NCBI GenBank assembly: GCA_016193315.1
Contig: JACPSJ010000001.1
Location: forward strand, 155,981 to 219,980
Length of the DNA stretch: 64,000 bases
Direction of reading: 5' to 3'
From: Candidatus Kerfeldbacteria bacterium
Lineage (GTDB): Bacteria > Patescibacteriota > Patescibacteriia > SBBC01 > CAIJZX01
The notes under the pieces were generated by a model. That model searched no databases. It saw only the letters and a program-made list of their open reading frames with translations, and had not been told where the DNA came from. A program made the position numbers and the translations under genes. Positions 9,275 to 64,000 of this stretch are shown piece by piece. Every line of letters starts with the position of its first letter. Position 1 is the stretch's first letter.

Positions 9275-9684
9275 GGCTGCCGAAAAAAAGCGGCGACGGG
9301 CGGCCCTCGGTAAACTCGGGACAGGCAGGCGGGCGGAATTTTTACCCCGCACCCGAAGTGGTGCGGCGGCCCCCTTGAACCCCCTTCCGCCCGCCCGCCA
9401 GAAGGCTAAAAATTCGCCCTCTCCGGCAGAGCCGGATCCGGCTTCGCCGGAAAAAAAGGTTCGCGCAGCGTTCAGCAAATTCGACCACATAAAACAAAGT
9501 TTCGAAGATAAGCTCTCCAGCTCTCCGGGGATTGATGGGTAGTGAGTTCAAACCAAACCGCAAGACTTCCTTATCATCGCATGAACCGACACCCCATCGG
9601 GCTTTGGGGTACGAGGGCACAGCCGGTTTTTAGTTATTTTGATATATTGACAAAATTGATTTTCTTCGATATATATACGGTGAT

Positions 9685-16194: not shown

Positions 16195-16923
16195 ATGGCG
16201 GGTGCAAAGGGCCTGGAGATACACCGCGATCGCGTGATGATCGTGACGGGTGGAACCGGCGGACTCGGTCAAGCCGTCACCCGCAAGCTTTTGGACGGTG
16301 GCGCGACCGTAATCGCAACGTATCTCAACCAAGACGAAGCCGATCGGCTGGCCGCATCCACGTCTAGCGACCAGCGTCAGCGGTTAAACCTCACGTTGGT
16401 GGACGTCACCAATCCGTCGTCGGTCAACGCGTTGGTGGCTCACGTCCTCGAGTCGCATGGCCGGATCGATGGTCTCGTCAACGTCGTCGGCGGCTACCAG
16501 TACCGACCCTTCCTCGAAATCTCACCGGCCGACTGGCAACGGCAGCTCCAGCTGAATCTCGACACGACCTTCCTCGTCACCCGGGCGGTCCTCAAGCCGA
16601 TGGTGGAGGCGGGCTACGGCCGGATCGTCAGCGTCGGATCGCAGAGCGCGATGGCAGCCGCTCCCTTCGCCGCCCATTACAATGCGGCCAAGGCCGCCGT
16701 GGCAAGCCTGATGGCCACCCTGAGTCACGAATTCGGTCCAAATATCACAGCCAATACCGTTCTACCCGGCACGATTGATACGCTGGCGAATCGTCAGGCC
16801 ATGCCCGAGGCTGACACGAGTCAGTGGGTATCGCCCGAGACCATCGCGCACATGATTTCGCGGCTGTTGGAAGCCAGCAACGTAACCTCTGGACAACATA
16901 TCCCGGTCACGCGCAACCGTTAG
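16195..16923 (+). CDS. Short-chain dehydrogenase/reductase (SDR) family oxidoreductase
   Basis: Start moved to ATG 16195 after AGGAGG RBS; TGGTGGLG cofactor motif; YNAAK catalytic Y-x3-K. Confidence 0.8.
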   Translation: MAGAKGLEIHRDRVMIVTGGTGGLGQAVTRKLLDGGATVIATYLNQDEADRLAASTSSDQRQRLNLTLVDVTNPSSVNALVAHVLESHGRIDGLVNVVGGYQYRPFLEISPADWQRQLQLNLDTTFLVTRAVLKPMVEAGYGRIVSVGSQSAMAAAPFAAHYNAAKAAVASLMATLSHEFGPNITANTVLPGTIDTLANRQAMPEADTSQWVSPETIAHMISRLLEASNVTSGQHIPVTRNR

Positions 16924-17104
16924 CTACGCCCCCGTCCGACCAGACGGGGTTTTCTTTTCTTTGACGCTCGGCATGCGATCTGCCGGGTGCTTGATCAGTT
17001 CAGGCAACTGTTTCGTAGCCCGGGTCGGCGAGTAGAAGTTTTCCACACCGGGACGCTTGACAGCAATACGGAACGTATGTAATATATAAACATATCTACA
17101 TATA

Positions 17105-48828: not shown

Positions 48829-49154
48829 CAAAGGTGGTAACCACCGGCCTGGGTATTGAGCCTCTATCTCGGGGTCGCGATCACTACCGATGGCGACGGG
48901 CGAGGACGGTTGCCGGTGGCAACCGTCCGCAGCCCAGGCCCGAAGGGCGAATCCCGATGGTCACCCCATGCCCTCATAGCGAAATGGGTCTCGGCCGCAT
49001 CGAGCCAGGCGAGATAGCGAGCCAAACTACTTGGCTCGCGGCGGCCGGGACGGGCCGAGCATGTTTCGACCCCGAGCCTGCCGAGGGGGAGGAACGGCGA
49101 GGCCCCGGAACACAGCGACTTCGCCAGATAGGCGGCACGTCTTCCTCTGTCTTT

Positions 49155-49226
49155 GCCCTCGTAGCACAAAGGACAGTGCAAGGGACTTCTAAGCCCGAGA
49201 TGATGGTTCGATTCCATCCGAGGGCA
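49155..49226 (+). tRNA. Possible tRNA-Arg (anticodon TCT) with imperfect anticodon stem (may be pseudo-tRNA)
   Basis: 72 nt: acceptor GCCCTCG/CGAGGGC, D-arm GCAC-AAAGGACA-GTGC, loop CTTCTAA, T-arm GATGG-TTCGATT-CCATC; anticodon stem only 3 WC pairs. Confidence 0.35.
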
Positions 49227-49291
49227 GAGACATTGGCGGACGCATAGGCGTTCTAAGCCTTGAGGTGTAGGTTCGAATCCTACCGGGGGCA
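49227..49291 (+). pseudogene. tRNA 3'-half-like fragment (anticodon-arm AGGC-GTTCTAA-GCCT, T-arm GTAGG-TTCGAAT-CCTAC, acceptor-3' CGGGGGC) without matching 5' half
   Basis: Hand folding; directly abuts previous tRNA-like gene. Confidence 0.3.
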
Positions 49292-49416
49292 AATCCATGA
49301 CAGTCATGATCTCCTCAATTTTTTTGGGTTTCTTGCTATTGACGCTAGAGCCGTCTTTTGTCACCATAGCCACAATTTCAGTCGCTCCTTCCATCGACCC
49401 CAAAACCGAGGAGGTG

Positions 49417-50376: not shown

Positions 50377-53300
50377 GCTGGTGGCTTTTTCTGTTCACAT
50401 GGCGTTTGACAATGAACGAATGATTCGCTTGAATGGCGGGGCTGCGCCTAGCCCCGGATGGGTGCTGTTCCGCGTCCAAGTCCACGTCTCGGTCTGGCAA
50501 GGCATTCTTTGGGGCCCCGCGCCATTCAAGGTGCGGGGCGTTTTCTTGACATCAATCCATCCGGGTGGTTCTCTGTGACAGCGGTGACTAGGTTTGGCGC
50601 GCCGTCGAAGTCATGTCCGGCCACAGCCAAGCAATCGCAGCGTTCTCTCCGGAGCCCCGATGATGAAATCGGGGCTGTTTCTTGACATTCTCGAAATCCT
50701 TCTGTACATTGCTGTCGCTCACCTGGCAGGGTTTCCACCCGTTGACCACGCTCCGCAACGTTGGCGACAGCCACGACGACGTGCGGCCGGGACCGCTATT
50801 CTTTGGGGCCCCGATCAATCTGTCGGGGCTGTTTTTCTTGACAGACCGTCAGGTGTCATGTAAAAAAGTCTTCATCTTCGGTCAGCGCTGTCGCTTGGAT
50901 CGCCAACCTTGCGTCGGGCGCGCTGCGCCTAAGCCGACAGTGCCCAGCCTAGCTCCTCTCTGGATCCCGATCACTCACCTGGTCGGGATGTTTTTCTTGA
51001 CTAGCCCACGTACTCGTGGTACATAGCTGTCGATTGTATCCATTGCGGATGGGTGCGGACAGGTAGCCCGCGGCATAACAGGCCCAGCCAAGCCCGGGTC
51101 AGCCATTGTGGTCTTTGGGTCCCGATCTGACAACAGGTCGGGACATCTTTTTATTGACACGGGAACAGCCTAACGATATAGTACGGCGAACTCGGTTAGG
51201 TCCGGCTGCCTATGCCATGCTTCGCCCAAGCAAGCACCGGCCCCGCATCGACCGCCGTGCCAAGCCGTTCTCCGGATCCTCCGTCTCTGACGGAGGATAT
51301 TTCTTGACATGAAACTGTTCTCTTGTTAAAGCGGGGCTGGCTCCTTGCCCAGGTCAGGTGACGCCAGTTGCGCCGGGCTCAGCTGTCCCGGTACAGCCAA
51401 CGGCCAGCATTGCCGCCGCCAGCACAGGCATGTCTATCTTTCCTTCGGGTCCCGATCGCGCTAGATCGGGACTCTTCGCTTGACTTTTTTAAAAACTTTA
51501 GTATAAAATTATTGCGTTTCTCGCGGCTGTGTTCGCCCGGCCGAGCTAAGGAGTTGACAGCTCCGGCACGCTGCTGAACGGTAGGCTCCTCTTTGGGCCC
51601 CGCATCATTCTCGGAATGGCGTGGGGCTGTTTTCTTGACAACCATTGCTCGGACAGGTACTTTCCACTGCGCTCCGCGCGACGGGACATTTTCTTGACAA
51701 ACAGGCCGGGGTGTCCTAGGTTGTCTCGCGAACCACCTGGCCCGCCTGCGCGAGACAGGCAGCGCCGACGCAGGGTACTGATTGACTGGCCGTGGTGTAC
51801 TTGCGAGTTCTATGGGGCCCCGTCTGGTATTACCGAGCGGGGCCGTTTTTTTGACGAACCAAGACGAAACGAATATAGTGTTCGAGTCGTTTTCCGGCCA
51901 GGCCTGGTTGGGATAGCCACCCCATCCAGCGCCATGCCTCCCCGTGTCAGGGATAGGCCAGCACCTCTCCGGGCCCCGATCACGTTGATCGGGACTGTTT
52001 TCTTGACAGGGTGTGTATTTGCTCCTACCCTTAGCCAACGCCCCACGCCGACCTAGTCTGACGACAGCAAGGGTCAAGCAGACTATCACGCCGCAGGCCA
52101 CTTCAGGCTCCGGGTCCCGATCTGACAACAGGCCGGGACTTTTTTCTTGACAACTTTTGATATTGCACCTATCGTCTCGCCAGACAGTATTGCCGTACGG
52201 CACTGTTCGTCTAGCAACGGCACCGCTTCCCAACGAAGACCTAGCTAGCCTACGGGTCCCGGTCTGAAAACAGGTCGGGACGTTTTATTGACGAAAAAGG
52301 GATAAACAACTAAGGTGTCGAAGTTCTATCCGGCCAGGTACGCCGGGCACAGGCGGCCAGCGGAAAGCCACCGTCAGCCCCCGCTCGCCAACGTCCGTCG
52401 CGCTCCGCACAGCCCGTCTCTGGGTCCTCCGCCTCTGGCGGAGGACGTTTTTCTTGACGCGAATGGGAAGTCGGTGATACGGTGCGCCTTGCGTTGGCAA
52501 AACCCGGCTGACCATCGTTGGGCATCGTATGTTCCTCACCGCCGGACAAGCGCGTCAAACGCCAGGCAACTCTTTGGGTCCCGATTCTCACGACTCGGGA
52601 CTATTTATTGACACAGATTATTAACTCGAGTAGGCTCGCGGGAGTATCACGGCTGGGCGATACTTCCAACGCACCCGCATCCCGATCAGTGTCATGCTCC
52701 TCTGTGGGTCCCGGCCGCTATACGTTGCCGGGACATTTTCTTGACGCGCATACACCATTTTGCTAGTTTGCGCATTGGATTGGCTGGCCATGTTAAGGTC
52801 GGGCCCGACAGAGTGCCGCCAGCTGCGCAAGAGCATGCCCTACTATGGGTCCCGGTTCTGATGAATCGGGACTTTTTCTTGACATGCGCTCAATCCTCGC
52901 TTAGGGTGAAACGCGCCTCATGCAGTCCAGGCGAGGTCCGCTTTGGCTGAGTAAGGCATGAATGGCCTAGGTGCGGTTGGCTGCTCTACGGGTCCCGATT
53001 CTCACGACTCGGGACATTTTCTCGACACGACTTTTTCGATAATGTACTTTCTGACAACTTGGCCCGCCGGGCATTGGATGAGTAGGCCATGGCATCCTTC
53101 GGTCCACTTCGGGGCTCCCGCAAACACGGGAGCCGATTTTTTCTTGACTCTTGTTGGTTGATCAAGTAACTTGCCTATCGTCAAGTTTCACGGCTCGGTG
53201 AGGATAGCTCCGCACTGCCTAGCCGGAGCGCCGTCAGGTGACGTTCGCTTGGGATAGCTTTGGAGGCGGGACGCCAGTCTCGCCTTTTTGCTTGACAAGT

Positions 53301-53575
53301 TTCGATCGCAACCCTAAAGTTTCAGCTCTCGCCTCGCTCCGGTTCTGTGTGACAGGGCCAAGTACCGCAGCACGAACCTCTCTTTGGGGCTCCCCCATCA
53401 TGATGGGAGCCTTTTGTTTGACAATCTCATCCGGTAGGGTCTAAGTTCACACAGTACGCAGGGCCTCGGATAGCCGCGGAGCCCATTTCCTTCCCGTGTT
53501 TCGGCTAGGCCAGCCGTTCTAAGGGTCCCGACTTCATCGGTCGGGACTTATTCTTGCTTGACAAAATTGTGCATC
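50340..53575 (+). repeat. Array part 1: ~23 tandem promoter-body-terminator minigene units (~135-175 bp each). Unit = TTGACA -35 / 17 bp / TAnnnT -10 in variable region, ~70-100-nt variable GC-rich body, conserved tail (..CCTAGG..TCTTTGGG + GC hairpin of conserved structure but variable/covarying sequence + T4-6) directly abutting next TTGACA
   Basis: Read directly: -35 boxes at 50406, 50546, 50681, 50838, 50996, 51164, 51304, 51479, 51645, 51693, 51850, 52003, 52147, 52287, 52453, 52608, 52741, 52878, 53021, 53144, 53292, 53427, 53568; each followed at 17+-1 bp by TAnnnT (TACATT, TAAAAA, TACATA, TATAGT, TAAAGC, TATAAA, TATCGT, TAAGGT..). Confidence 0.7.
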
Positions 53576-53684
53576 TCCGTTAAGGCTGGTGTACGCTCCT
53601 TCCAATCCATCACTGGACTATCGGATCCGAAGGCGCGCTTCGTCCACGCTGTTTGCCTCTTCACCACATCTTTGGAGGCTCACC

Positions 53685-55532
53685 GTGAAGCGTCAGAAGC
53701 CGCGGCCACCATTGCCGCGCAAGCTCAACCTGCTGGAGTATTTTCCGTACCATCTGTACCCAGTCATGCGACCGAATCAGCGGCTTGGTCTCGAGACTAT
53801 TGAGGCCAACGACGGATTGGCGACCCTCGAAGCGCCGACCGGCAGCGGCAAGATGGCCATCGGCTACACCTTCCTCAAGGCGCTGGCCGCTCAGCGCCTG
53901 GGGCCGCTGTTCTACATCGTGCCGACGAAGACGCAGGTCGACCAACTCGTCCGGTACCACCCGGATCTCATCCCGGTCTACGGGCGGAACGAGCACGACT
54001 GTCTGTATTACCCGGACCTGTCGCTGAAGGCGGATGAAATTCCAACCGTCCTCTGCCCAGGCTGCGATCACTTCGTCAACCAGGAGACCGGCGCCGTCAA
54101 CGTACCCGGCGTCGTGCCCTGTCCGTACTACCTCCAGAAGTACCAGGCGAAGCAGGCGCCGATCGTCGTCTGCACCATGGCCTTCTACCTCTTCACCCAG
54201 CTCTTCTCGCAGGAGTGGGAGGAGCCGGCCGGCCTGGTCATCGATGAAGCGCACCAGTTCCCCCGGGTCGTCCGTAACTGCCTCAGCTACGAGATTACCG
54301 ACTACCACTTGTGGCGGTCGGCCGACCTCTTGGCGGAGATCGACGGCGTCGCCGCGCACCAACTGCGGGACTTCGGCCGGAAGATGATTTCGATCATCAA
54401 GCGGAAGCCAGCCGGGCAGGGAACGCTGCTCAAGGACGAGGAGATCATTCAGCTTATCGAGCTGCTCGACGTCATCGACGCCGGGGCGGTCGAACGCGCC
54501 CTCAGCCGGGCCATTCGGCAGGGGCTGATCGACGTCAAGCAGGACCGCGAGACGTTGAAGCAGCTGGAGACGATCGTTCGCGACCTGCGGCGGTACCTCC
54601 ACACCCTCGAGTACTCGCTGCCGACGAAGCAGCGGCACGCCCTGAACTACACCTACGGCTTCTACGAGGAGGAGATGGGGCCGAACGACAAGGCTCAGTA
54701 CCGTCTGGTCATCAAGGCGCACTACGTCGCGCCGATTATCGCCAAGATCCTGAGCCCGCGGACGGTGGCGTATTCGGCCACCATCGGCGATCCGCCGATC
54801 TTCCAGGGCGAGACGGGTATCCGCGCCGACGTCTTCGAGTTCGGTTCGGAATTCTCTCATCTGAAGACGCGGGTGTTCATGCCGACGGACACTAAGAACC
54901 TGGCCTTCAACACCCGGGGTCGACAGGATGTTACCCGGACGCTGCGGCTGGTGGCCAAAGCGGCCCGTCGCTTCGCCCAACGGGGTCACCGCTCTCTGGT
55001 GGTGATCGTGTCGGAGAAGGAGCGGCAGAAGTTCTTGACCCTGGCCGAGGAGGAGCGGCTGAAGGTCCTGAGCTACGGGAATGGGTCACCCGCTAAGACA
55101 GTGGCAGCCCGGTTTCTTGGCGGTGAAGGAGATTGCCTGGTCGGCACCACCGCCCAGTACGGCGAGGGGATCGATTTGCCACGGCAGTCGGCGCCGGTCA
55201 TCTTTATGCTCCGGCCTGGCTACCCGCATCCGGACGATCCGGGCACGCAGTTCGAGGAGCGGCGCTTCAGCACCGGGCAGGTCTGGGCCATCCGCCAGTG
55301 GCGGGTGATGATGGAAGCGCTCCAGGTGCGGGGCCGGAACATCCGTTCCAGCGACGACCTCGGCGTAACCTTCTTCATGTCCCAGCAGTTCCGGAAGTTC
55401 CTGCGCAGCAGCCTGCCGAAGTGGCTCGAGCGGGCCTACCGCAACACCCGCACCTTTGACCAGTGCGTCGAGGAGACGATGGAGTTGTTGAGCCGAGGCG
55501 ATCGAGGTCTGACGGCTGGAATACAGCAGTGA
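53685..55532 (+). CDS. DinG/XPD/Rad3-family superfamily-2 DNA helicase with FeS-cluster cysteines (type IV CRISPR Csf4-like size)
   Basis: Start GTG 53685 after GGAGG; Walker A-like TGSGKM, DEAH box (VIDEAHQF), four Cys (HDCLYY, CPGCDHF, CPYY) in FeS insertion, C-terminal helicase motifs (GTTAQYGEGIDLP); expressed from the -35/-10 of the last array-1 unit and terminated by first array-2 hairpin. Confidence 0.8.
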   Translation: MKRQKPRPPLPRKLNLLEYFPYHLYPVMRPNQRLGLETIEANDGLATLEAPTGSGKMAIGYTFLKALAAQRLGPLFYIVPTKTQVDQLVRYHPDLIPVYGRNEHDCLYYPDLSLKADEIPTVLCPGCDHFVNQETGAVNVPGVVPCPYYLQKYQAKQAPIVVCTMAFYLFTQLFSQEWEEPAGLVIDEAHQFPRVVRNCLSYEITDYHLWRSADLLAEIDGVAAHQLRDFGRKMISIIKRKPAGQGTLLKDEEIIQLIELLDVIDAGAVERALSRAIRQGLIDVKQDRETLKQLETIVRDLRRYLHTLEYSLPTKQRHALNYTYGFYEEEMGPNDKAQYRLVIKAHYVAPIIAKILSPRTVAYSATIGDPPIFQGETGIRADVFEFGSEFSHLKTRVFMPTDTKNLAFNTRGRQDVTRTLRLVAKAARRFAQRGHRSLVVIVSEKERQKFLTLAEEERLKVLSYGNGSPAKTVAARFLGGEGDCLVGTTAQYGEGIDLPRQSAPVIFMLRPGYPHPDDPGTQFEERRFSTGQVWAIRQWRVMMEALQVRGRNIRSSDDLGVTFFMSQQFRKFLRSSLPKWLERAYRNTRTFDQCVEETMELLSRGDRGLTAGIQQ

Positions 55533-55559
55533 ACAACGAATAGGCAAAACCTGGGTTAC

Positions 55560-58500
55560 CAAGTGTAGGCAACCCCCAGGCAAGAAAGAGTGCTCTCTGG
55601 GACCCCCGATCGAATGATCGGGGGTCGTTTTCTTGACAGGTGTTGAGCTTATCATTAACCTGCAGCCGCTAGCTACGGACCGGCTAGGAACGGTGGGCCA
55701 CGTTTTGGCTGAGTCCGGACGGCCGGACCCAGGTCGCCTAGAGTGTTCTATGGGGCCCCGATCATTTGGTCGGGGTCGTTTTTTGACTTCCTCCAAGGTT
55801 GGGTGTAGGGTCTTCCAATCCGCCAGCCTTCGGCAGGTAACGGTAGTTCTGGGTAGCCAGTCCTGTGGCACGGGCTCCAACGCGCGGATGGGATCGCCTT
55901 GGTTTTGCATGGTTTGTCTCGCTCCGGGTCCTCCGCCTTTGGTGGAGGACTTCTTTCTTGACATAAAGCAACCAAGCGAGTAGGAAGTTGATACCGGAGT
56001 GGTACGCGCCGCCCCGGAAAGCTAGGCTCTTTGGCGGTATGCCACGCTGGCCTGCACTGCGGGACCTCATTCGGAAGAATGAGGTCGTTTTTCTTGACAT
56101 GCCCACGAAATAATTCTAGTGTGCGAGCGCCGCGCCTAGGAATTCTTTGGAGCCCCGTTCGCAAGAACGGGGCTGCTTTCTTGACACGACCTATTTTTTC
56201 CTGTAAGACCTTTTGCACCCGGTGCTGAATCCAATGCACTGGTGCGCCATCGCGCGGCAGCCGCATCAATCGGCACGCTGGGCTACGCTTCGGGACGGTG
56301 ACTCACCATGGTCGCCGTCTTTTTTCTTGACACGACGAATGCAATGCAATAGGCTTGCCCAGCAGTATTCCCGCTGCGGACAGCCATGACCCGCACCGTT
56401 CCGCTAGGCTGCGGTCAGCCGTTCTTTGGAGCTCCGTTCGCAAGAATGGGGTCAATTTCTTGACAAACTGCCTGATTCAGTTAGCCTACCCAATCACCAG
56501 AAGTCCCATCCTCAGCCTTGGTGTCCCGTGACAACCATCGCTATGGTTGGGCCTGGTCCGGAGGGCCGTCCTTTGGAGCCCCGTTCGTCAGAGCGGGGCT
56601 TTTTCTTGACTGCCGTTATTACTTTTGATAGGGTCGGCCGACACGCCTAGGCTTGCCTTGGTTAACCAAGCACCGCCGTCGTCGGCCACCCCAGCGCCAT
56701 CTTCGGAGCCCCTGATCATTCGATCGGGGGCGTTTTTCTTGACTCTCGCTGGATCATCCTGTACAACGTCCAAACCAGGTGTGCCTGACCTGCCAGGACC
56801 ATGCCTGTGTGGGCCTTGGAATGCACGGCCATACTCTGGGGCCAGCTCGTCTTTACGCGAGTTGGCCTACTTCTTGACAGCGTGAAAGCATTACTCTAGT
56901 TTTCAGCCATTCCATGCGCCTCGGATAGCTGCGCTATCGCGCGATGCGTAGCGGAACGGACTGGTGGAGTAGTCATTGGTTCTCTGTGGGGTCCCATCAG
57001 TCGGTGGGGGCTTCTTCTTGACTGAACGAAAAATACGCTGATAGATTCTGTCGACCCGCCAGGGAAAGCAAAGCCGCGGAATTCCTCGGATCGCCGCGCC
57101 TCGCCTGCCTGTGCCATGACAGCCTGATCTTCGGTGCCTCATCCATCCGGGTGGGGCATGTTTCATGACATCCCCTGGGGAGAGAGAATAATCTTGGTTG
57201 TCCACGCGCCTCGGAAAGCTTTCCTAATGGCGATACGTAATTGAACTGATTTCGTGGTTGTAAGTGGCTATCCTTGGTTTCCCGACGTAATGTGGGGCTT
57301 TCTCCTTGACCAGAACACTCAATTGTCTGTAATTTTCCAATCCTCGGAAAACCATGGTCCGGCGGGCCTGTCTCTGCCTGCGTCAGCCTCGCTCTTCCAG
57401 GCTTAGCCTCGCTTTGGGTCCTCCGTCGCTGACGGAGGACATTTTCTATTGCGATTGCTTGACAAATCCGGGGATGACGATTAGGTTGCCGACACTAGGC
57501 TGGCCCGGCTTTCCTAGGGCAAGTCGGCCTGTCCCGGAGCATCCGGCGGACAGCTCAGCATAGCCATTCTTTGGATCCCACGCAACCGCGGTGGGACTTT
57601 TCTTGACTTTCCGAGGGCCCCGTTCTAAAGTGCCGCGGCTGGATCAAGGCTCGGATAGGCCTCCTTGGCCCCGCAAAGCCTAGGAACCTCTGGCCGCGGA
57701 CGGCCCCGGACAGGATCTCCCTCCCGTTCTTTGGGTCCCCATCAGCCATGGTGGGGATGCTTTCTTGACCGACGAAAATGGATTTGCTAGTTTCTTGCGG
57801 CCATATGGTTAGGCCGGGAACGGCGGCCATCGGTGTTCCAAGCACCGCCTTGGCCAGGCTCGCCTTGCTCCACTTCGGGACCCTGCAGAAATGCGGGGTC
57901 ATTTTCTTGACCTTCTGAAGTTCGAAGCTTATGTCCGTCTGACGTGGTATGGTCGGCTTGGCTAGCGCTGCGTGTCCCTCGCCAGACTCCCCATCGCCAT
58001 CCCTGCTCTAGGCGTCGTGTTCTCCGGAGCCCCGTTCGAAAGAGCGGGGCTGCTTTCTTGACATCGCCCACACCGGGATGTACGGTCGAATGACGCGATG
58101 ATGAACTGTGCCAAGCCAGTCATCGGCCCGCCAGCGCGAGACGCCCCGCCCTTTGCTGCGCAATGCCTCCGCTCTCTATGGGGTCCGTTCGGCAGAACGG
58201 ATCTGTTTCTTGACAGCGTGTGAATTTGGCCGTAGATTTTTTTTGCTTAGGCCGTGGTTCATGATTGTCTTTGTAAGCGGAAACCAGCCCAGGCTAGGTG
58301 TCCCCAGCACTGGCATGGTCGGCTTGCAAGTGGCCAACCACGCCCTGGATGTCTACGGGCCCAGCCCGTGTTTCTGAATCATGACGGGCTGGGCTTTTTT
58401 CATGAGCTTCATCCGGGAACGCAATCTACTGACAAACCAACACGGTTCGGCTAATTTGTCTTGGCATCAGGCGGTTTTTTCGTCAGCCTTAGTGTCGCGT

Positions 58501-59060
58501 GATAACCATCGGTCTGGTTGGGTCTGTTCCGGAGGGCTGTACTTCGGGGCCTCGCTCCACATGAGCGAGGCTGCTTCTTGACGCTAAGTTCATCTCATGA
58601 TAAACACCCGGTCGTCGCAGTCGGCGCCTTGAAACTCATAGTACTCCCGGAACGCCAGCGATCGCCGCAGTGCGGAATTCCAGACCACCGCATCCCCAGC
58701 CGCCGCACGCTCCGTCAGACTTTGGGCCCGACCGCGCAAGCGCGTCGGGCATTTTTCTTGACTAGTTTCATGCTCTGTAGTAGGTTCGTCGGTGTCCGCC
58801 ATGCCCACGCCAGTTTCGGAATGGTATCCTCCCGCCAGTCGCGGCAGTCTGTGGCCCGCTCTGGAGTCCCGATGGTAACACCGCCTTGGGACTTTTCTTG
58901 ACGCCCTGCTCATTCGTTGATAAGAGTATGATGGTTCTGAAATTGATTTCTCGGAATCGACCCGGCAGGCCCAGGATTCCCGAGTCTCGCCATCCCAGCC
59001 ACACCCCAGCTCCTCTTCGGGGCCCCGCCAGCCATCGCGGGGCCATCTTCTTGACAAAAC
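55560..59060 (+). repeat. Array part 2: ~24 further promoter-body-terminator minigene units of the same family
   Basis: -35 boxes at 55633, 55782, 55959, 56095, 56181, 56328, 56460, 56605, 56739, 56873, 57018, 57165 (ATGACA), 57306, 57459, 57603, 57764, 57906, 58058, 58209, ~58398 (degenerate), 58578, 58758, 58898, 59050; same TCTTTGG-hairpin-Tn tails. Confidence 0.7.
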
Positions 59061-59166
59061 CAGGGCGGTTTTGCTAAGGTCGCGGATCGCCTTTTGTTTG
59101 GGCGAACCTGGCTACGCAGGACGCGTGGCAGCTGTACCATCCAATTCTTTGGAAAGGGGCCACCCA

Positions 59167-59811
59167 ATGGCCAACAAGCGGAAGCGCGTCACCGTCCGGT
59201 GCGTCGGGATCGAGCCGATCCTCTTCAACGCCATTCCCGAAGGCCTGCTCATGGACCTGCTGAAGGGCAAGAGCCGGCCGAAGGTGAAGGGCGACGACGT
59301 CGACCTCGACAAGATCTGCGAGGACAAGCTCTACGTCGACGACGACGGCACGCCGTGCATCCCGCGGCTGAACATGTTCGCCGCCCTGAAGTACGCCGGC
59401 AAGTTCGTCAAGGCCGGCAAGAAGAACATCACCGGTGGTGACTCGACCCAGCTGCCGTCGATCCTGACGGTCGAGGGAACGCTGTTCCGTCTCGACAACG
59501 GGACGGCGAACGGCAAGCCGGAGTGGAAGATGGATCTCCGCGCCGGCCGTCACCGCCAGGGCACCTCGAAGGTCATGGTCGCCCTCGTTCGGCCCCGCTT
59601 CGACCGCTGGGGCTTCACCGCCACGGTCTCCTGCGCCGACGACGACGCCACGATCAAGACGGTCAAGCAGCTGTTCTGGGAGGCCGGCGACAAGGCTGGT
59701 CTCGGCGACTACCGCCCCTCGTCGGGCGGCTTCTACGGCCGCTTCCGGCCGGTGGGCTTCACCGTCGAGGACATGGTCGAGGAGACCGAGTTCGCGGCGG
59801 CCGTGGCCTAG
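59167..59811 (+). CDS. Basic ~214-aa protein, paralog A (array-associated); C-terminal glycine-rich loop GLGDYRPSSGGFYGRF reminiscent of RAMP (Cas5/Cas6-type) G-rich loops - tentative
   Basis: ATG 59167 after AAAGGGG; driven by last array promoter (TTGACA 59050); N-terminus RKRVTVRCVGIEPILFN shared with paralog B. Confidence 0.55.
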   Translation: MANKRKRVTVRCVGIEPILFNAIPEGLLMDLLKGKSRPKVKGDDVDLDKICEDKLYVDDDGTPCIPRLNMFAALKYAGKFVKAGKKNITGGDSTQLPSILTVEGTLFRLDNGTANGKPEWKMDLRAGRHRQGTSKVMVALVRPRFDRWGFTATVSCADDDATIKTVKQLFWEAGDKAGLGDYRPSSGGFYGRFRPVGFTVEDMVEETEFAAAVA

Positions 59812-59893
59812 CCGCTGTACGGTCGTTTCCTTTCGGGACGGCGGGACGCGAAGCGTCCCGCCGCCGCTTCACCTACGGATCGGAGGAACTGCC

Positions 59894-60532
59894 ATGCTGC
59901 GGATTCACGTCCGATGTGTCGGCCTCGCCCCGCTATTGATGAACCGGCCCGACCAGCAAGCGCTGGTCGAGTGCGTCGCCGGCAACGGCCGCTCGTCCCG
60001 TTCGGACCAGGAGGTCTTCGAGTCGAAGATCTACCGGGCGCCGGACGGACGGATCGCCCTGCCGCGGCCGATGCTCCTGGCCGTGCTGAAGAACGCCGGT
60101 CGCGAGGTCAAGCTCGGTCGCCAGAAGGTGACCACCCCCGAATCGACGCTGCTCAGCAGCCTGCTGAGCATCAAGGAGGAGTATCTCACCCTCGACGGCG
60201 GCCGGCCTGGTTCGGAGCCGCTGGTCGAGCGGGATTCCCGTCGGGCCATCCAGCGGCAGGGTCGGAAGCAGGAGCGGGTGCGGGCCGTCCGCCCGAAGAT
60301 CAAGCGGTGGGGATTCGAGGTGACGCTCTGCGTCAGTTCGCCCTCCCAGGCGCGGATCGCCCGCCAGCTGTTCGATGTCGCCGGGGCCGAGGGCTACCTC
60401 GGCGATTTCCATCCATCGTCCAAGTTTCGCAAGAAGCTCAAGGCGAACGGCTGGAAGGCTCCGTTCAATCGGTTCGCCGTGACCGAATGGGCGGTCGAGG
60501 CGGTGCTCGAGGAAGCGATGGCAGCGGTGTAG
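59894..60532 (+). CDS. Basic ~212-aa protein, paralog B (N-terminus MLRIHVRCVGLAPLLMN; shared motifs K(I/L)Y..DG, RWGF..T)
   Basis: ATG 59894 after GGAGG; ~25-30% identity to paralog A by eye. Confidence 0.55.
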   Translation: MLRIHVRCVGLAPLLMNRPDQQALVECVAGNGRSSRSDQEVFESKIYRAPDGRIALPRPMLLAVLKNAGREVKLGRQKVTTPESTLLSSLLSIKEEYLTLDGGRPGSEPLVERDSRRAIQRQGRKQERVRAVRPKIKRWGFEVTLCVSSPSQARIARQLFDVAGAEGYLGDFHPSSKFRKKLKANGWKAPFNRFAVTEWAVEAVLEEAMAAV

Positions 60533-60747
60533 ATCTGGTATTCTCGACGGCGCCGTTCTGATCAGGCCTGTCAGGGACCCGATCGCCACAACTACATGAT
60601 GTGTCCTTTGGAGCGTCAGGAGAAATTCCTGGCGCTTTCTTTTTCGCCACAACAACTTGACAGCGAGCGTCTTTTCTGCTAGGCTGCTCGGTTGGTTAGC
60701 TGTCTTGTCGCTTGTCGTCACCGTCTCTCACAGCTACGGAGGCTTCC

Positions 60748-61071
60748 ATGTACATTCCCAAGCGAATTCTGCTCATGGTCGTGCTAGCGTTGGTGCTAGT
60801 GGGTACCACGGCCTTCACCCGTGTGCGACGCGCGACTACGGTCCCGAATGTGGAGATAATCTCCCTCGGGCTGAACGCCACGTTCGCCGACGGGAAGCCG
60901 ATTACCAAGCCGATCCGACTGGCTCTCCACCGCGTCGGCACGAAGCATCTCGGCGCACAGTACGTGGTGGTGACCGGGCAGCCCGACAGGAATGGCTTTA
61001 TGACTGTTACCGCCAAGGTCCCGGTTGACCCGAAGTTTCAACCGTTGGTGCGGCTGGCGCTTCAGAGATAA
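60748..61071 (+). CDS. Small secreted/membrane-anchored protein (signal peptide)
   Basis: ATG 60748 after GGAGG; preceded by a degenerate array-type tail+promoter (TCCTTTGG-hairpin-TTTTT..CTTGACA-17-TAGGCT at ~60595-60680). Confidence 0.45.
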   Translation: MYIPKRILLMVVLALVLVGTTAFTRVRRATTVPNVEIISLGLNATFADGKPITKPIRLALHRVGTKHLGAQYVVVTGQPDRNGFMTVTAKVPVDPKFQPLVRLALQR

Positions 61072-61081
61072 TGGAGGAATC

Positions 61082-61462
61082 GTGGACCACCCAACCTATA
61101 TTTATCTTCAGCCCGGCGAGCAAAACGAGCCGCGGCGAAGGCAGCTGGAAGCCAAGCTCGAGGCCTACCGGCGTCGGGTGGCCGAAGCCGGCGACAGTCC
61201 AAGCGGAGGCGTCGAACCGTTCTGGTTTTGGAACGACCGGGCCAAGCTGATCATCCTCGAGCGGTTGCTCAGAGACGGGCGGGTCGATCGGACCGAGCTG
61301 CATCGGGAACTCTGGCTCAATCATGCTACGAACCCGATCGTCAGATACTCGCACTGGCAGTACGGCAACCCCTTCCACACCGCCTTCGACGTGATATTCG
61401 ACTACGTTGAAACCGGCGGCGCGAACGTCATGGGAGGTTCTGGCCTGCCATCACCCCAGTGA
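61082..61462 (+). CDS. Hypothetical protein (~126 aa)
   Basis: GTG 61082 after GGAGG; Trp/aromatic-rich C-terminal half. Confidence 0.4.
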   Translation: MDHPTYIYLQPGEQNEPRRRQLEAKLEAYRRRVAEAGDSPSGGVEPFWFWNDRAKLIILERLLRDGRVDRTELHRELWLNHATNPIVRYSHWQYGNPFHTAFDVIFDYVETGGANVMGGSGLPSPQ

Positions 61463-61592
61463 GCTCCGTCAGAATGCTCCTTTGCCCCAAAGCTTTGCCA
61501 GTTGTCCCGCACAACTGGTTTTTTTCAACCAGCGATCTTTGACTTTTCTCCAGGGTTGTGCTATAGTAGTAAGAGAAAACAGAAAAAACCCC

Positions 61593-64000
61593 GTGGTGGA
61601 AGCAACAGACAAAAAGGAAAACACCCACCAGCGACACCGTCGGCATCTTCATATCCACATCGCCTGGACGACCGCGGCCTTGATTTTTTTTGGTTTGGGA
61701 GTTTTTCTTTCACTTCGGACGGAAGAGTTGCCGCGGGTGGAACGGCCGGCCGTGGTTCGGGCTGGCGAAAGCGGAACCGCCGCCTCAAACGAGTTGAGCA
61801 GTAGCTGCATTTTAACCCGAGCCGATTACGACGCCGACGGTCAGATTACCGAAACGGACGTCCAGCGGTACCTGAAGTATCGAGCGGCCCGAAGCACCGG
61901 TGCCGACCTCAATGCAGACGGGGCGAACGGAGACCTCCGCGACGACGCCTGCATGGAAGCCTTCTACTCGGCGGGCAAGCTGTGGCCGCAGATCGTGTCG
62001 CCTTCAGCCGGAGCCGAATTGCACGGCGTCGTGCCGCTCATCGCCGAGTCGTCAATTTTTCAAACCTTGGAGCGGTTGACGCTACGTTTCACCACCCCGG
62101 AGGGCACGACCTATGCCCGTGATTACCAAGTCAGCACGGTTCTCAATCCGGAGAATCACGAGGCGGTAGTTATTCCTTTCGACAGTTTAGCCATGGCCAA
62201 CGGCCGGGTGACGATCACCATCTGCCCGACCGGCGGAACGACCACGGAGTGCGCGCGACCGGTGGAGTACGTGGTTAAGAACACGGCCAAGATCCACGAA
62301 CCATCGTCCCAGGCCACCATCAGTGGCCAGCGGGCTAAATTCAGTGCGACCATCAGTGGGATTGTCACCTATGCCCGGTTTGAGATTCGTGCCACCTCCG
62401 GCGGTAGCTGCGGCGGCCAGTCGGCATTCTCCCTAACCACCTCAAAAGTCGACGGCAGCGGACGCCCATATTTCTACCTTGACACCACCGGCTGCACGAA
62501 CGGGGTCTACCTGGCTCGCCTGTCGTACCTGCCGATCTGGCAGACCTTCTATACGGCCGCCGGGAAATCCCCGGTGGCGGAAACTACCTTCACTGTCGCC
62601 AATGCGGTGACCACCACGAATAGTGCCAGTGATGCTGAAGAAGAATCAACCGCGGATACCACCAACACCTCCAATGCGTCCGACGGCAGTTCAACAACCA
62701 CTGACGAAGGAACAACCTCGACTGACGACAGCCAGCTCATTCACGACGACGATCAGCCAGACAACTCGACGACCACCACGCAGGCTTCCGACCTCACCGT
62801 CCCGGACATCACCAAGCCGAAAGCCAACACCAACCTCTACGAACTCAAGGCGGTCACCGGCCGGGTCAGCCGCGCTGACCGGGTCGGCTTGATCCTGAAA
62901 TACCACTCCGGTCTTGATAGCAGCGGGTGCAGTCTCAGCGGCGGCGACTACGTCATTCAGGAGCAGTCGGTGCCGATCGCTTCGGACGGAACATTCCGTC
63001 TCCCGGTACCGAAGGCGCTCAAGCCCGGGGTGTACGCCCTGGCCAGCGCGGCGTTTGACGACGGCCGCAGCGGCCCGACGAGAAGCCTCTGCTTCCGGGT
63101 ACTGAATCCATTGGTCAAATTAGCGACCGCCGATCAGGAACGCTTGTCAGGGAACGGTCGCCTCGACGCCTACGCCATCGGGCCGGTGAGCGCCGTGGAG
63201 TTCTATGCCGCCCAGGGCGATCTGCCGCCGCTGTTTGTTGGCCGGGCAAGTTCCTCGGTGTCGGGGAACGAGCGACTGTGGACGCTGGCTTTTGACACCC
63301 GCAACTATCAGCCCGGGACGTATCAGGTAACGGCCGAGGCCACCGCCTTGAACGGTGTGACGGTGACCAGCGCAACCATTGCCGTCACCATTGACAACCA
63401 GACGGAAAACGCCCCCCGCTCGAGCCTGACCGTCAGCCCGCCGACCATCGCTGACGAACCAGACGTGCCAGACGAAGTTGATGCCACGGAAGTTGAGCGT
63501 CAAACCGTCGCCACCCAGCCGAAGCCGGCCGCGACTCAGCCGATTGAACATCCTAAGCGAACGGGCACGGCGAACCCTGAGAAACTGAAAGTCCTGACCG
63601 TCGCTAATGTTGACCGAGCGGCGGAGGAAAAGCCGGTCCTCAAACTAACCGGTGTCGGGCCGCCGAACTCGATCGTTACCATCTTTATCTACTCGAATCC
63701 GATCGTCGTCACCACCCGCACCGACGCCAGCGGGAACTGGTCATACTCCCTCGACCGAAACCTGGTTGATGGGCAGCATGAGGTCTACGTCACCATCACC
63801 GACCAGACCGGGAAGATCGTCGAGAAAAGCAACCCGCTTAGTTTCTTCGTGGCTGAAGCGCGCGCGGTGAGTGAAGAAGAGTTCGTCCGGCGGGAAGTAC
63901 CGAGCACGCGACCGAGCGATACGTATCTGTTCCTCTATATCGCCGGCGCCAGCCTGATGGTTACCCTGACGATCCTCGTTTTCTTGCTGCTGAGGTTGAA
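61593..64000 (+). CDS. Large cell-surface protein, 3'-partial at window end: signal-anchor, dockerin-type Ca-binding repeat (DYDADGQITETDVQRY...DLNADGANGDLRDD), multiple Ig-like domains, Thr/Asp-rich linker, terminal hydrophobic anchor
   Basis: Continuous open frame (phase of 62166) from GTG ~61593 to the last base; not in ORF track because no stop inside window; translated by hand. Confidence 0.6.
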   Translation, partial: MVEATDKKENTHQRHRRHLHIHIAWTTAALIFFGLGVFLSLRTEELPRVERPAVVRAGESGTAASNELSSSCILTRADYDADGQITETDVQRYLKYRAARSTGADLNADGANGDLRDDACMEAFYSAGKLWPQIVSPSAGAELHGVVPLIAESSIFQTLERLTLRFTTPEGTTYARDYQVSTVLNPENHEAVVIPFDSLAMANGRVTITICPTGGTTTECARPVEYVVKNTAKIHEPSSQATISGQRAKFSATISGIVTYARFEIRATSGGSCGGQSAFSLTTSKVDGSGRPYFYLDTTGCTNGVYLARLSYLPIWQTFYTAAGKSPVAETTFTVANAVTTTNSASDAEEESTADTTNTSNASDGSSTTTDEGTTSTDDSQLIHDDDQPDNSTTTTQASDLTVPDITKPKANTNLYELKAVTGRVSRADRVGLILKYHSGLDSSGCSLSGGDYVIQEQSVPIASDGTFRLPVPKALKPGVYALASAAFDDGRSGPTRSLCFRVLNPLVKLATADQERLSGNGRLDAYAIGPVSAVEFYAAQGDLPPLFVGRASSSVSGNERLWTLAFDTRNYQPGTYQVTAEATALNGVTVTSATIAVTIDNQTENAPRSSLTVSPPTIADEPDVPDEVDATEVERQTVATQPKPAATQPIEHPKRTGTANPEKLKVLTVANVDRAAEEKPVLKLTGVGPPNSIVTIFIYSNPIVVTTRTDASGNWSYSLDRNLVDGQHEVYVTITDQTGKIVEKSNPLSFFVAEARAVSEEEFVRREVPSTRPSDTYLFLYIAGASLMVTLTILVFLLLRL

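What the first reader, a model, noticed from the sequence alone, without database searches (positions are those of the whole stretch)
60590..61070. Array-type tail/promoter element reused to drive a downstream secreted-protein gene
At ~60595-60680 there is a degenerate copy of the array tail (TCCTTTGG, hairpin AGCGTCAGG/CCTGGCGCT, T-tract, CTTGACA, 17 bp, TAGGCT) upstream of the 60748 gene. This shows the repeat element functions as a portable terminator-promoter module for protein genes too, like the helicase slot.
Basis: seen in the sequence. Interest (0 to 1): 0.55.

Follow-up and report, generated by a model that had tools for sequence, protein, structure and literature searches.

The report
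Array's last terminator beside ordinary promoter
The flagged stretch is a transcription terminator, the last and most degenerate repeat of an unusual CRISPR-like RNA array, which ends a two-gene Cas7-like operon and sits 12 bases before an ordinary promoter for the next, unrelated gene; the junction is ordinary, but the array it closes is not.

Summary

The two halves have different histories.

- **Tail.** It carries the locus signature, C-T-N-Y-G-G abutting a GC hairpin. All 45 array tails have it; no convincing terminator elsewhere in the window does. A tail-only structural model gives 15.6 bits, E=0.04. A similar tail follows the orthologous gene in three other genomes, where no promoter follows it.
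- **Promoter.** It is strong (14.5 bits, rank 3 of 119,121 non-array positions) but generic, and a 12-nt spacer separates it from the T-tract.
- **Whole module.** The tail+promoter model gives only 7.2 bits (E=6), against 27-64 for array copies.

So this is the terminal repeat and terminator of the Cas7-like operon next to an independent promoter, not one portable module.

The locus is the interesting part: a type-IV-DinG-like helicase, two Cas7-fold proteins and about 45 unique ~110-nt RNAs, each with its own promoter and terminator. Distant relatives have promoter-less hairpin-repeat arrays instead. The genome is labelled Candidatus Kerfeldbacteria.

The parts
50407..59085 (+). Array of about 45 small transcription units. 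Each is TTGACA-17-TAnnnT, a unique ~90-nt body, CTNYGG, a GC hairpin and a T-tract. The helicase gene interrupts it.
   Evidence: R1 scores 27-64 bits; hairpin covariation in 8 of 9 pairs; bodies all unique.
53685..55532 (+). DinG/XPD-type helicase gene sitting inside the array (the 'helicase slot'). The mechanical ORF starts at 53589; the gene call in the identical contig starts at 53685.
   Evidence: Pfam Helicase_C_2 and DEAD_2; PADLOC typeIV_DinG PDLC01439 E=4.9e-43 over its full length; canonical junctions upstream (38.5 bits) and downstream (46.6 bits); gene call in L009.
58999..59085 (+). Last canonical tail+promoter junction. Its promoter (TTGACA at 59051) drives the Cas7-like operon.
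   Evidence: R1 50.3 bits; sequence.
59167..59811 (+). Cas7-like gene a (214 aa).
   Evidence: AlphaFold2 model pLDDT 74, pTM 0.73; the top 50 Foldseek PDB hits shown are all Cas7-family (Csm3, type VII Cas7, Cas7-11), E 1e-6 to 1e-4; phrog_4652; no Pfam, NCBIfam or PADLOC hit.
59894..60532 (+). Cas7-like gene b (212 aa), a paralog of gene a.
   Evidence: About 34% identity to gene a; phrog_4652 E=5e-7.
60533..60603 (+). 3' untranslated stretch of the Cas7-like operon. Its length matches an array body, it has no promoter of its own, and it is not similar to the corresponding stretch of the relatives.
   Evidence: comparable 60-90-nt stretches follow every protein gene of the locus in the window, L001, L007 and L008.
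60604..60611 (+). TCCTTTGG, containing the locus-specific CTNYGG motif (core 60606-60611) that abuts the hairpin.
   Evidence: 45 of 45 array tails have it; none of the convincing terminators elsewhere in the window does; it is conserved as CTTTGG, CTGCGG and CTTCGG in L001, L007 and L008.
60612..60644 (+). Intrinsic terminator: 9-bp stem AGCGTCAGG/CCTGGCGCT, loop AGAAATT, tract TTCTTTTT.
   Evidence: -20.3 kcal/mol, z -2.9; R2 15.6 bits, E 0.042 for 60600-60645; L001 has the same 3' arm CCTGGCGC and also a single G.U wobble in the stem.
60645..60656 (+). 12-nt spacer CGCCACAACAAC between the T-tract and the -35 hexamer. It is absent from canonical array junctions.
60657..60685 (+). Sigma-70-type promoter TTGACA-17 bp-TAGGCT. 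The predicted start is near 60690-60693.
   Evidence: Matrix score 14.5 bits, rank 3 of 119,121. The consensus scan missed it because TAGGCT matches only 3 of 6 positions of TATAAT. The start site is inferred.
60583..60599 (+). Upstream copy of a 17-nt imperfect direct repeat (TCGCCACAACTACATGA). Its partner lies at 60644-60660 (TCGCCACAACAACTTGA). Together they flank the 44-nt tail.
   Evidence: 15 of 17 identical; 14 of 5000 shuffles do as well.
60748..61071 (+). orf107, an ORFan with an N-terminal hydrophobic segment. GGAGG lies at 60738-60742.
   Evidence: GC at codon positions 0.62/0.42/0.76, hydropathy 2.0-2.2 over the N-terminus; it matches only itself among 5.8 billion proteins; called as a gene in identical contigs.
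61082..61462 (+). orf126 (GTG start), apparently translationally coupled to orf107. A terminator follows at 61497-61519 and the next promoter at 61539-61567.

Best explanation
The segment 60604-60644 is the Rho-independent terminator of the two-gene Cas7-like operon. That operon's promoter is the last canonical array junction, with TTGACA at 59051. The terminator is also the last and most diverged member of the locus's repeat family, which has the form C-U-N-Y-G-G, then a GC hairpin, then a U-tract.

In distant relatives this repeat is a plain hairpin repeat of a CRISPR-like array that lies directly downstream of the cas7-like or helicase gene. In the window's lineage each repeat hairpin also carries a U-tract and is followed by a promoter, so every unit is its own transcription unit. 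Protein genes sit in the same frame of terminators and promoters.

Twelve nucleotides after the U-tract there is a separate promoter of the genome's common class (TTGACA-17-TAGGCT). It most likely starts transcription near 60690-60693 and drives orf107-orf126, an operon unrelated to the system.

Shown: the sequence features, their statistics, the similar tails at the equivalent position in relatives, and the generic nature of the promoter.

Inferred: that termination and initiation actually occur, and that the repeat hairpin is the RNA handle used by the Cas7-like proteins.
For: - Terminator.
- CTNYGG is in 45 of 45 array tails and in no convincing terminator elsewhere in the window.
- Tail-only model R2: window 15.6 bits (E 0.042). 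Equivalent tails score 23.2 in L007, 21.0 and 16.3 in L008, and 15.7 in L001.
- Those relatives have no promoter after the tail, and the next gene is convergent.
- Distant loci L003, L014, L015 and L016 carry hairpin repeats next to the cas7-like or helicase genes. In L003 and L014 these are clearly prefixed by CTNYGG-like motifs and lack promoters; in L015 and L016 the prefix is looser, and L015 may have AT-rich promoters.
- In L014, where the array follows the helicase instead, the terminator of the cas7-like gene lacks the motif.
- The promoter class is generic.
- Whole-module model R1 scores 7.2 bits.
- Terminator-then-promoter junctions are common elsewhere: 16930, 61497/61539, and L003 3431-3495 and 4838-4905.
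Against: - There are no transcript-end data, so function is inferred from sequence.
- The R2 score is borderline (E 0.04). A generic terminator at 16918 scores slightly higher (17.5 bits) through stem composition alone.
- The stem (AGCGTCAGG) is unlike the array consensus (GGGNCCCG).
- A 17-nt direct repeat flanking the tail (p about 0.003) is not explained by this account.
- Protein-gene junctions in L001 (7474-7576, 9864-9955) also have spacers between the tail and -35, so 'tail, spacer, promoter' may be a recurrent arrangement rather than two unrelated parts.
Confidence: 0.66

Rival explanations
1. The whole 60595-60685 segment is one degenerate copy of the array's tail+promoter cassette, moved or duplicated as a unit and co-opted to express orf107.
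For: - The order of elements matches array junctions.
- The promoter scores within the array range.
- A 17-nt direct repeat flanks the tail and could be an insertion scar.
- Junctions with spacers also occur at protein-gene slots: the helicase promoter at 53519-53563, and L001 7474-7576 and 9864-9955.
Against: - R1 scores 7.2 bits, E 6.2.
- The tail stands at the equivalent position in three genomes that lack the promoter and lack orf107.
- The promoter class is found at other genes.
- There are no other solitary copies in 64 kb.
- The direct repeat flanks only the tail, not tail plus promoter.
Confidence: 0.14
2. The 3' untranslated stretch plus tail (60533-60644) is a working, promoter-less last unit of the array. 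It would be co-transcribed with the cas7-like genes and then cut off or bound through the CUNYGG-hairpin handle, for example as a fixed guide or an autoregulatory RNA. Termination would be a second role.
For: - The stretch has the length of an array body, as it does after every protein gene of the locus.
- In L001, L007 and L008 the corresponding body is conserved (z 4.3-10.1 against shuffles; L001 against L007 is 80% identical, against 76% for the coding DNA), while array bodies share nothing.
- In distant relatives the array is read straight out of the cas7-like or helicase gene.
Against: - The window's own body is unrelated to that of the relatives (z about 0).
- It shows no complementarity to the cas7 or helicase promoter regions above chance.
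- In L014 the cas7-like gene ends with a motif-less terminator.
- Nothing is known about processing.
Confidence: 0.13
3. Chance resemblance: an ordinary terminator that happens to be preceded by CTTTGG, next to an ordinary promoter, with no relation to the array.
For: CTNYGG occurs at 0.0023 per nt in non-array sequence. R1 is not significant. The stem is unlike array stems.
Against: - The motif abuts the stem exactly as in 45 of 45 array tails, and no convincing terminator elsewhere has it.
- The element sits immediately after the array's own operon.
- Four genomes keep motif plus hairpin at the same place.
Confidence: 0.05

Closest known systems
Rho-independent (intrinsic) terminator followed by a sigma-70-type promoter at a junction between co-directional operons
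   Same: A GC-rich 9-bp hairpin with a U-tract lies 73-112 nt after a stop codon. TTGACA-17-TAnnnT, a 5' leader of about 56 nt and a GGAGG site then precede the next gene. Similar junctions occur elsewhere in this genome and in relatives (16930, 61497/61539, L003 3431-3495).
   Different: The hairpin is preceded by the locus-specific CTNYGG motif and belongs to a repeat family shared with about 45 small-RNA units.
Terminal (often degenerate) repeat of a CRISPR array, and standalone repeats next to cas genes that give crRNA-like regulatory RNAs (Shmakov et al., bioRxiv 10.1101/2023.03.03.530964; listed, abstract only read)
   Same: It is a solitary, diverged copy of the locus repeat at the edge of the array, directly beside cas-like genes. 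From my own knowledge, terminal CRISPR repeats are typically the most degenerate.
   Different: The repeat here doubles as a transcription terminator. The body in front of it is the 3' untranslated stretch of a cas7-like mRNA. No complementarity to cas promoters was found.
Type IV-A CRISPR-Cas (Csf complex plus CasDinG)
   Same: The helicase matches the typeIV_DinG profile over its full length (E 4.9e-43). The partner proteins have the Cas7 fold. There is an adjacent array of hairpin repeats with unique intervening sequences. No adaptation genes were seen near the array.
   Different: - No Cas5, Cas6 or Cas8 homologs were recognised.
- Repeats are not identical; their stems covary.
- Intervening sequences are about 60-100 nt rather than about 32.
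- In this lineage each unit has its own promoter and terminator.
- The context is chromosomal, in Candidate Phyla Radiation (CPR)-type genomes, rather than on plasmids.
Type II-C CRISPR arrays with a promoter inside each repeat (Neisseria and Campylobacter; Zhang et al. 2013, cited from memory and not checked here)
   Same: Guide RNAs are made from many internal promoters rather than by cutting one long precursor.
   Different: Those repeats carry no terminators, still need tracrRNA and RNase III for 3' trimming, and belong to Cas9 systems.

Membership tests
   CTTTGG at 60606-60611 abuts the stem. 45 of 45 array tails have it. Matrix score 8.7 bits, top 15 of 119,163 positions.
   The stem is AGCGTCAGG/CCTGGCGCT. 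It pairs well but is unlike the consensus. R2, which rewards pairing, gives 15.6 bits against an array median of about 30.
   A 12-nt spacer lies at 60645-60656. Only a few array junctions have spacers (57412-57464, 53519-53563).
   60657-60685; 14.5 bits against an array leave-one-out range of 7.7-23.8. The feature is not specific to the array.
   R1 gives 7.2 bits, E 6.2.
Intrinsic (Rho-independent) terminator | Stable GC-rich stem-loop immediately followed by a U-rich tract, downstream of a stop codon on the coding strand | tested here: met
   The stop codon is at 60530-60532.
Intrinsic (Rho-independent) terminator | Transcripts actually end at the U-tract | not testable with these tools
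   No RNA data are available. The runs holding this genome were reachable here only as assembled contigs, and no transcript data were available.
Sigma-70-type promoter | -35 and -10 hexamers at 17-bp spacing, placed upstream of a gene with a ribosome-binding site | tested here: met
Sigma-70-type promoter | Mapped transcription start | not testable with these tools
   No 5'-end data.
Type IV CRISPR-Cas | CasDinG-type helicase | tested here: met
   PADLOC typeIV_DinG PDLC01439, E 4.9e-43, residues 57-629 against profile positions 14-572 of 575. NCBIfam cas_csf4 matches only at E 0.025.
Type IV CRISPR-Cas | Cas7 (Csf2) backbone subunit | tested here: inconclusive
   The fold matches the Cas7 family (Csm3, type VII, Cas7-11) at TM about 0.5 and E 1e-6. 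There is no sequence-profile hit to any Cas family. The model's pLDDT is 74, built from only 6 sequences.
Type IV CRISPR-Cas | Cas5 (Csf3), Cas8-like (Csf1) and Cas6/Csf5 subunits | tested here: not met
   Only the helicase and two Cas7-like paralogs are conserved across loci. orf107 and orf126 had no family hits, and no third gene is shared between the related loci.
Type IV CRISPR-Cas | CRISPR array of near-identical direct repeats with spacers of about 30-40 nt | tested here: not met
   Tandem Repeats Finder finds no array. Repeats vary with compensatory stem changes. Bodies are about 60-100 nt.
crRNA-like regulatory standalone repeat | A spacer-like part partially complementary to a cas promoter or 5' leader | tested here: not met
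   The best local matches of 60533-60611 to the cas7 and helicase promoter regions are at chance level.

The most novel reading that the evidence does not exclude
The repeat (CUNYGG, hairpin, U-tract) would be the RNA handle of a Cas6-less, type-IV-derived effector made of Cas7-like proteins and a CasDinG-like helicase. The cas7-like mRNA would then end in a genuine promoter-less guide unit that is released or bound in cis. This would give the system a hard-wired guide or an autoregulatory loop.

The 17-nt direct repeat flanking the tail would be the scar of the mechanism that seeds new repeat units. Protein-gene boundaries would then be part of the same expandable array.
Probability: 0.12. 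Interest if true: 0.7.

Novelty: new variant of a known kind. Interest (0 to 1): 0.4.

Why it matters
On its own the element is an ordinary terminator-promoter junction, and it does not show a portable module. Its value is as a boundary marker. It shows that the repeat of this locus is used at the 3' end of the cas7-like operon as well as on the small RNAs, and that a tail stands at this position in four genomes.

Together with the promoter-less hairpin-repeat arrays of distant relatives, this supports one reading of the 8.7-kb array. The array would be a CRISPR-like guide array whose repeats have become terminator-promoter cassettes, so guide RNAs would be defined by transcription start and stop rather than by Cas6 cutting.

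I found no description of this in the literature searched. If that holds, it would be a new way of making guide RNAs in a minimal helicase + Cas7 system of CPR bacteria, and it would be directly testable by RNA end mapping.

Tried and rejected
- **Whole-module model R1 as a test of 'copy of the array element'.** The element scored 7.2 bits. I therefore split the analysis into tail and promoter.
- **Close relatives in IMG/VR.** Searching with the Cas7-like protein and orf107 found none.
- **Representative genomes (GTDB).** The scan found none. An alignment that included the paralogs was too diverse to search with.
- **JGI metagenome scan.** It returned only a duplicate of L001.
- **Strain contigs L009-L012.** They are at least 99.99% identical to the window, so they carry no comparative information.
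- **Targets of the array bodies.** I found no match in 50,697 phage records apart from one 28-nt hit at E=1. I found no significant match elsewhere in the window and none between bodies apart from one 16-nt motif.
- **Rfam.** Only the four tRNAs reach gathering score, and there is nothing at E<=1 in 59000-61700.
- **Complementarity of the 3' untranslated stretch to the cas7 or helicase promoters.** At chance level.
- **Integron-like cassette idea** (hairpin sites, with recombinase genes nearby in some loci). I considered it and set it aside. Gene order (helicase, mini-array, cas7 pair, tail) is conserved in L001 and, on the shorter contigs L007 and L008, for the genes they contain. The flanking motifs also do not resemble attC sites. 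I did not test it further.
- **CTNYGG as a UNCG-type tetraloop closed by C-G.** The motif fits that pattern, but there is no room for a supporting stem next to the terminator hairpin. This is left open.
- **Literature.** Six searches found no description of a Cas7-like + DinG system with promoter/terminator-bounded units. The library lacks most subscription papers, so absence is not proof.
Full report
**1. What is at the coordinates**

| Feature | Coordinates |
|---|---|
| Stop codon of the upstream ORF | 60530-60532 |
| TCCTTTGG | 60604-60611 |
| 9-bp stem AGCGTCAGG / CCTGGCGCT (one U.G pair), loop AGAAATT | 60612-60620 / 60628-60636 |
| TTCTTTTT | 60637-60644 |
| Spacer CGCCACAACAAC | 60645-60656 |
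| TTGACA | 60657-60662 |
| Spacer of 17 bp, then TAGGCT | 60680-60685 |
| GGAGG | 60738-60742 |
| ATG | 60748 |

- The terminator scan reports the hairpin and tract. The RNA folds at -20.3 kcal/mol, z = -2.9.
- The promoter scan misses the promoter only because TAGGCT matches 3 of 6 positions of TATAAT.
In nearly all array junctions the T-tract runs straight into the -35 hexamer as TTTTC-TTGACA.

**2. The array it is compared with**

From about 50407 to 59085 the + strand carries roughly 45 units of about 145 nt. Each unit has four parts:
- TTGACA-17-TAnnnT;
- a unique ~90-nt body (no two bodies are alike);
- the motif C-T-N-Y-G-G directly before a GC hairpin (45 of 45 tails);
- a T-tract.

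The hairpin arms covary. Eight of nine pairs show double changes, and 95% of cells are paired against 81% in shuffles.

Two stretches of protein-coding sequence sit in the same frame:
- a helicase gene (53685-55532), flanked by canonical junctions;
- a pair of paralogous genes (59167-59811 and 59894-60532), preceded by a canonical junction at 58999-59085.

The finding is what follows that pair.

**3. Is the element a copy of the array junction?**

A covariance model of the whole junction, R1 (41 copies, 87 positions), scores array copies 27-64 bits. It scores 60590-60691 at only 7.2 bits, E = 6.2. Two generic terminator/TTGAC sites, 16913+ and 28140-, score higher. As one module, the claim is not supported. 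I then tested the halves separately.

*Tail*
- The 18-nt matrix around CTNYGG gives 8.7 bits (array median 16). That is in the top 15 of 119,163 non-array positions.
- A tail-only structural model, R2 (15 tails, 9 pairs), gives 15.6 bits, E = 0.042 for the whole window. This is within the low end of true array tails, which range from about 8 to 52 bits.
- A survey of terminator-like hairpins on both strands found the motif before every array terminator and before this one. It was absent before every convincing terminator elsewhere (3739, 5788, 16041, 16930, 37640, 40590, 41278, 50364, 61497 and those on the minus strand). One weak 6-bp hairpin inside a coding region, at 46290-, has CTGCGG 2 nt away.
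- The motif is therefore specific to this locus. It is not a habit of this genome's terminators.

*Promoter*
- It scores 14.5 bits on a matrix built from 36 array promoters (leave-one-out range 7.7-23.8). That is rank 3 of 119,121 non-array positions.
- Equally good sites lie at 9647+, 28174-, 17057+ and 16112+.
- TTGAC-N16-18-TAnnnT occurs 12 times outside the array, against 2.5 expected.
- It is a strong promoter of the genome's ordinary class, not an array-specific one.

**4. Relatives decide which gene the tail belongs to**

- The exact protein of 59167-59811 is in an 857-kb contig of a metagenome-assembled genome labelled Candidatus Kerfeldbacteria.
- Homologs at 54-61% identity lie in three other genomes: L001 (also held as L002 and L013), L007 and L008. 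In L001 they sit next to a DinG-like helicase; L007 and L008 are short contigs with partial upstream ORFs I did not identify. All three carry mini-arrays of the same tail+promoter units.
- In all three, 68-92 nt after the stop of the second paralog, there is a CTNYGG-hairpin-T-tract element:
  - L001: CTTTGG-GGCGCTAGG-GAAA-CCTGGCGCC-TTTATTTTTTT. It has the same 3' arm as the window and also a single G.U wobble in the stem.
  - L007: CTGCGG-GGCACCGAA...
  - L008: CTTCGG-GGCACCGGAA..., and a second one, CTTCGG-AGCGTCGA...GGCGCT.
- R2 scores these at 15.7, 23.2, 16.3 and 21.0 bits.
- None is followed by TTGACA. In L001 and L007 the next gene is a convergent VTT-domain gene.
- The tail is therefore a conserved 3' end of the paralog operon. 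The promoter is particular to the window, where a different operon (orf107, orf126) lies downstream.

**5. What the locus is**

- The helicase has Pfam DEAD_2 and Helicase_C_2 domains. It matches PADLOC's typeIV_DinG profile over its full length at E = 4.9e-43.
- The paralogs have no Pfam, NCBIfam or PADLOC hit and match only phrog_4652, of unknown function.
- An AlphaFold2 model (pLDDT 74, pTM 0.73) gives Foldseek hits in the PDB whose top 50 are all Cas7-family subunits: Csm3, type VII Cas7 and Cas7-11, at E 1e-6 to 1e-4 and TM about 0.5.
- A profile search finds 47 protein clusters, all unnamed. Every context examined pairs the protein with a DinG-like helicase in genomes that otherwise carry housekeeping genes.
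- In the distant loci the neighbouring non-coding DNA holds hairpin repeats with a period of about 85-115 nt.
  - In L003 and L014 they have the form CTNYGGGG-stem-TGAAAGAT-stem-CCAG, with covarying stems, and no T-tracts or promoters.
  - L015 and L016 have similar repeats with a looser prefix; L015 may carry AT-rich promoters.
- The window's 'tail' is therefore the family's repeat. In the window's clade it has gained a U-tract and a promoter, so each unit is transcribed on its own.
- In L014 the array follows the helicase rather than the cas7-like gene, and the cas7-like gene ends with a plain, motif-less terminator. So the tail after the second paralog in the window reflects adjacency to the array. 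It is not a special requirement of the cas7 mRNA.

**6. Most likely mechanism**

Transcription from the junction at 59051 runs through both Cas7-like genes and a 71-nt untranslated stretch, and stops at the hairpin and U-tract at 60612-60644. RNA polymerase starts afresh at the promoter at 60657-60685, about 45 nt downstream. That gives a leader of about 56 nt, GGAGG, and orf107 followed by the coupled orf126. This transcript ends at the terminator at 61497.

Terminator-then-promoter junctions are a general style in these compact genomes. Examples are 16930, 61497/61539, and L003 3431-3495 and 4838-4905.

The termination and initiation steps are inferred from sequence only. I put this reading at about 0.66.

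**7. Rivals**

- Helped by a 17-nt imperfect direct repeat that brackets the 44-nt tail. The copies are at 60583-60599 and 60644-60660, 15 of 17 identical, and 14 of 5000 shuffles do as well.
- Also helped by spacer-containing junctions at other protein-gene slots.
- Hurt by the R1 score, by the promoter-less tails at the equivalent position in relatives, and by the absence of other solitary copies.

(b) *The untranslated stretch plus tail is a working promoter-less last unit (0.13).*
- For: the stretch has the length of an array body. In L001, L007 and L008 the corresponding stretch is conserved (z = 4.3-10.1; 80% identity for L001 against L007, compared with 76% for the coding DNA). Array bodies share nothing between genomes.
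- Against: the window's own stretch is unrelated to theirs (z about 0), and it shows no complementarity to the locus promoters.

(c) *Pure chance (0.05).*

**8. The downstream gene**

- orf107 has coding-like GC by codon position (0.62/0.42/0.76) and a hydrophobic N-terminus with hydropathy 2.0-2.2.
- It has no homolog other than itself among 5.8 billion proteins.
- 'Secreted' is plausible but unproven.
- It is not part of the conserved system: L001, L007 and L008 lack it.

**9. Comparison with what is known, and novelty**

- The element itself works like any intrinsic terminator next to a sigma-70-type promoter.
- As a solitary, degenerate repeat beside cas-like genes, it resembles the terminal repeat of a CRISPR array or a standalone crRNA-like repeat. 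It failed the one testable criterion for the latter, complementarity to a cas promoter.
- The locus resembles type IV-A CRISPR-Cas in its CasDinG-like helicase and Cas7-fold proteins. It fails other defining features:
  - no Cas5, Cas6 or Cas8;
  - repeats are not identical;
  - bodies are 60-100 nt;
  - each unit has its own promoter and terminator.
- Six literature searches found no description of such a system, with the caveat that the library is incomplete.
- I rate the finding itself as modestly interesting (0.4). It is a correct observation with an over-extended interpretation. The surrounding array deserves much more attention than this boundary element.

Noticed in passing
window 50407-59085 (+): About 45 tandem small transcription units, each with its own TTGACA-17-TAnnnT promoter, a unique ~90-nt GC-rich structured body and a CTNYGG-hairpin-T-tract end. 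There is no Rfam family and no tandem-repeat call. The bodies match nothing in the phage collection or elsewhere in the window.
   Followed up: partly
window 53685-55532, 59167-59811, 59894-60532: The helicase matches the type IV CasDinG profile (E 4.9e-43). The two paralogous unnamed proteins have a predicted Cas7 fold. The locus looks like a minimal, Cas6-less derivative of type IV CRISPR-Cas in a genome labelled Candidatus Kerfeldbacteria.
   Followed up: partly
L003 4290-4850 and 6790-7935; L014 5900-4600 (minus strand); L015 8690-10400; L016 7400-7980: Distant relatives of the Cas7-like + helicase pair carry hairpin-repeat arrays with a period of about 85-115 nt. In L003 and L014 the repeats read CTNYGGGG-stem-TGAAAGAT-stem-CCAG, with covarying stems, and lack promoters and T-tracts. 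These look like the ancestral form of the window's terminator-promoter repeats.
   Followed up: partly
window 60583-60599 and 60644-60660: A 17-nt imperfect direct repeat (TCGCCACAACTACATGA / TCGCCACAACAACTTGA) brackets the 44-nt tail. The downstream copy overlaps the first four bases of the -35 hexamer. It could be a scar of insertion or rearrangement, and it remains unexplained.
   Followed up: partly
L001 11478-11567, L007 2939-3030, L008 2148-2215: The untranslated stretch between the second cas7-like gene and its tail is conserved among these three genomes as well as the coding DNA is (z 4-10 against shuffles). The array bodies of the same genomes share nothing. The window's stretch is unrelated to theirs.
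   Followed up: partly
array bodies, e.g. window 50435, 50960, 52235, 55650, 56134, 56640, 57480; L014 5780, 5605, 5320: Many bodies contain a CTAG-centred motif (GCCTAGG, GCTAGC, or in L014 GCTAGTCTATGG), often a few bases before the CTNYGG motif or near the 5' end. Several also share CTCGGATAGC (53440, 56920, 57640). This may be a second conserved feature of the RNAs.
   Followed up: no
window 51635-51693 and 56094-56180: Two abnormally short units (59 and 87 nt from -35 to -35) look like truncated or collapsed array units.
   Followed up: no
window 49236-49295: Directly after tRNA-Arg (49154-49227) there is a stretch with a tRNA-like T-arm and acceptor end (GTAGGTTCGAATCCTACCGGGGGCA). Neither ARAGORN nor Rfam called it. 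It may be a tRNA fragment or a pseudo-tRNA.
   Followed up: no
L001 2789-3637 and 4988-6148; L010 8816-9787; L014 1058-2002 and 16214-16744: Tyrosine recombinase genes lie within a few kb of the locus in several genomes. L001 also has a gene with a Pfam AcrVA2-like hit next to it. The system may sit in a variable or mobile region.
   Followed up: no
window 16913-16995 (+): A generic terminator (CCCCGTC...GACGGGG) has a T-tract that runs into TTGACG, as in the array's fused arrangement, but it has no CTNYGG motif and no recognisable -10 hexamer. This shows that the fused T-tract/-35 layout is not exclusive to the array.
   Followed up: partly
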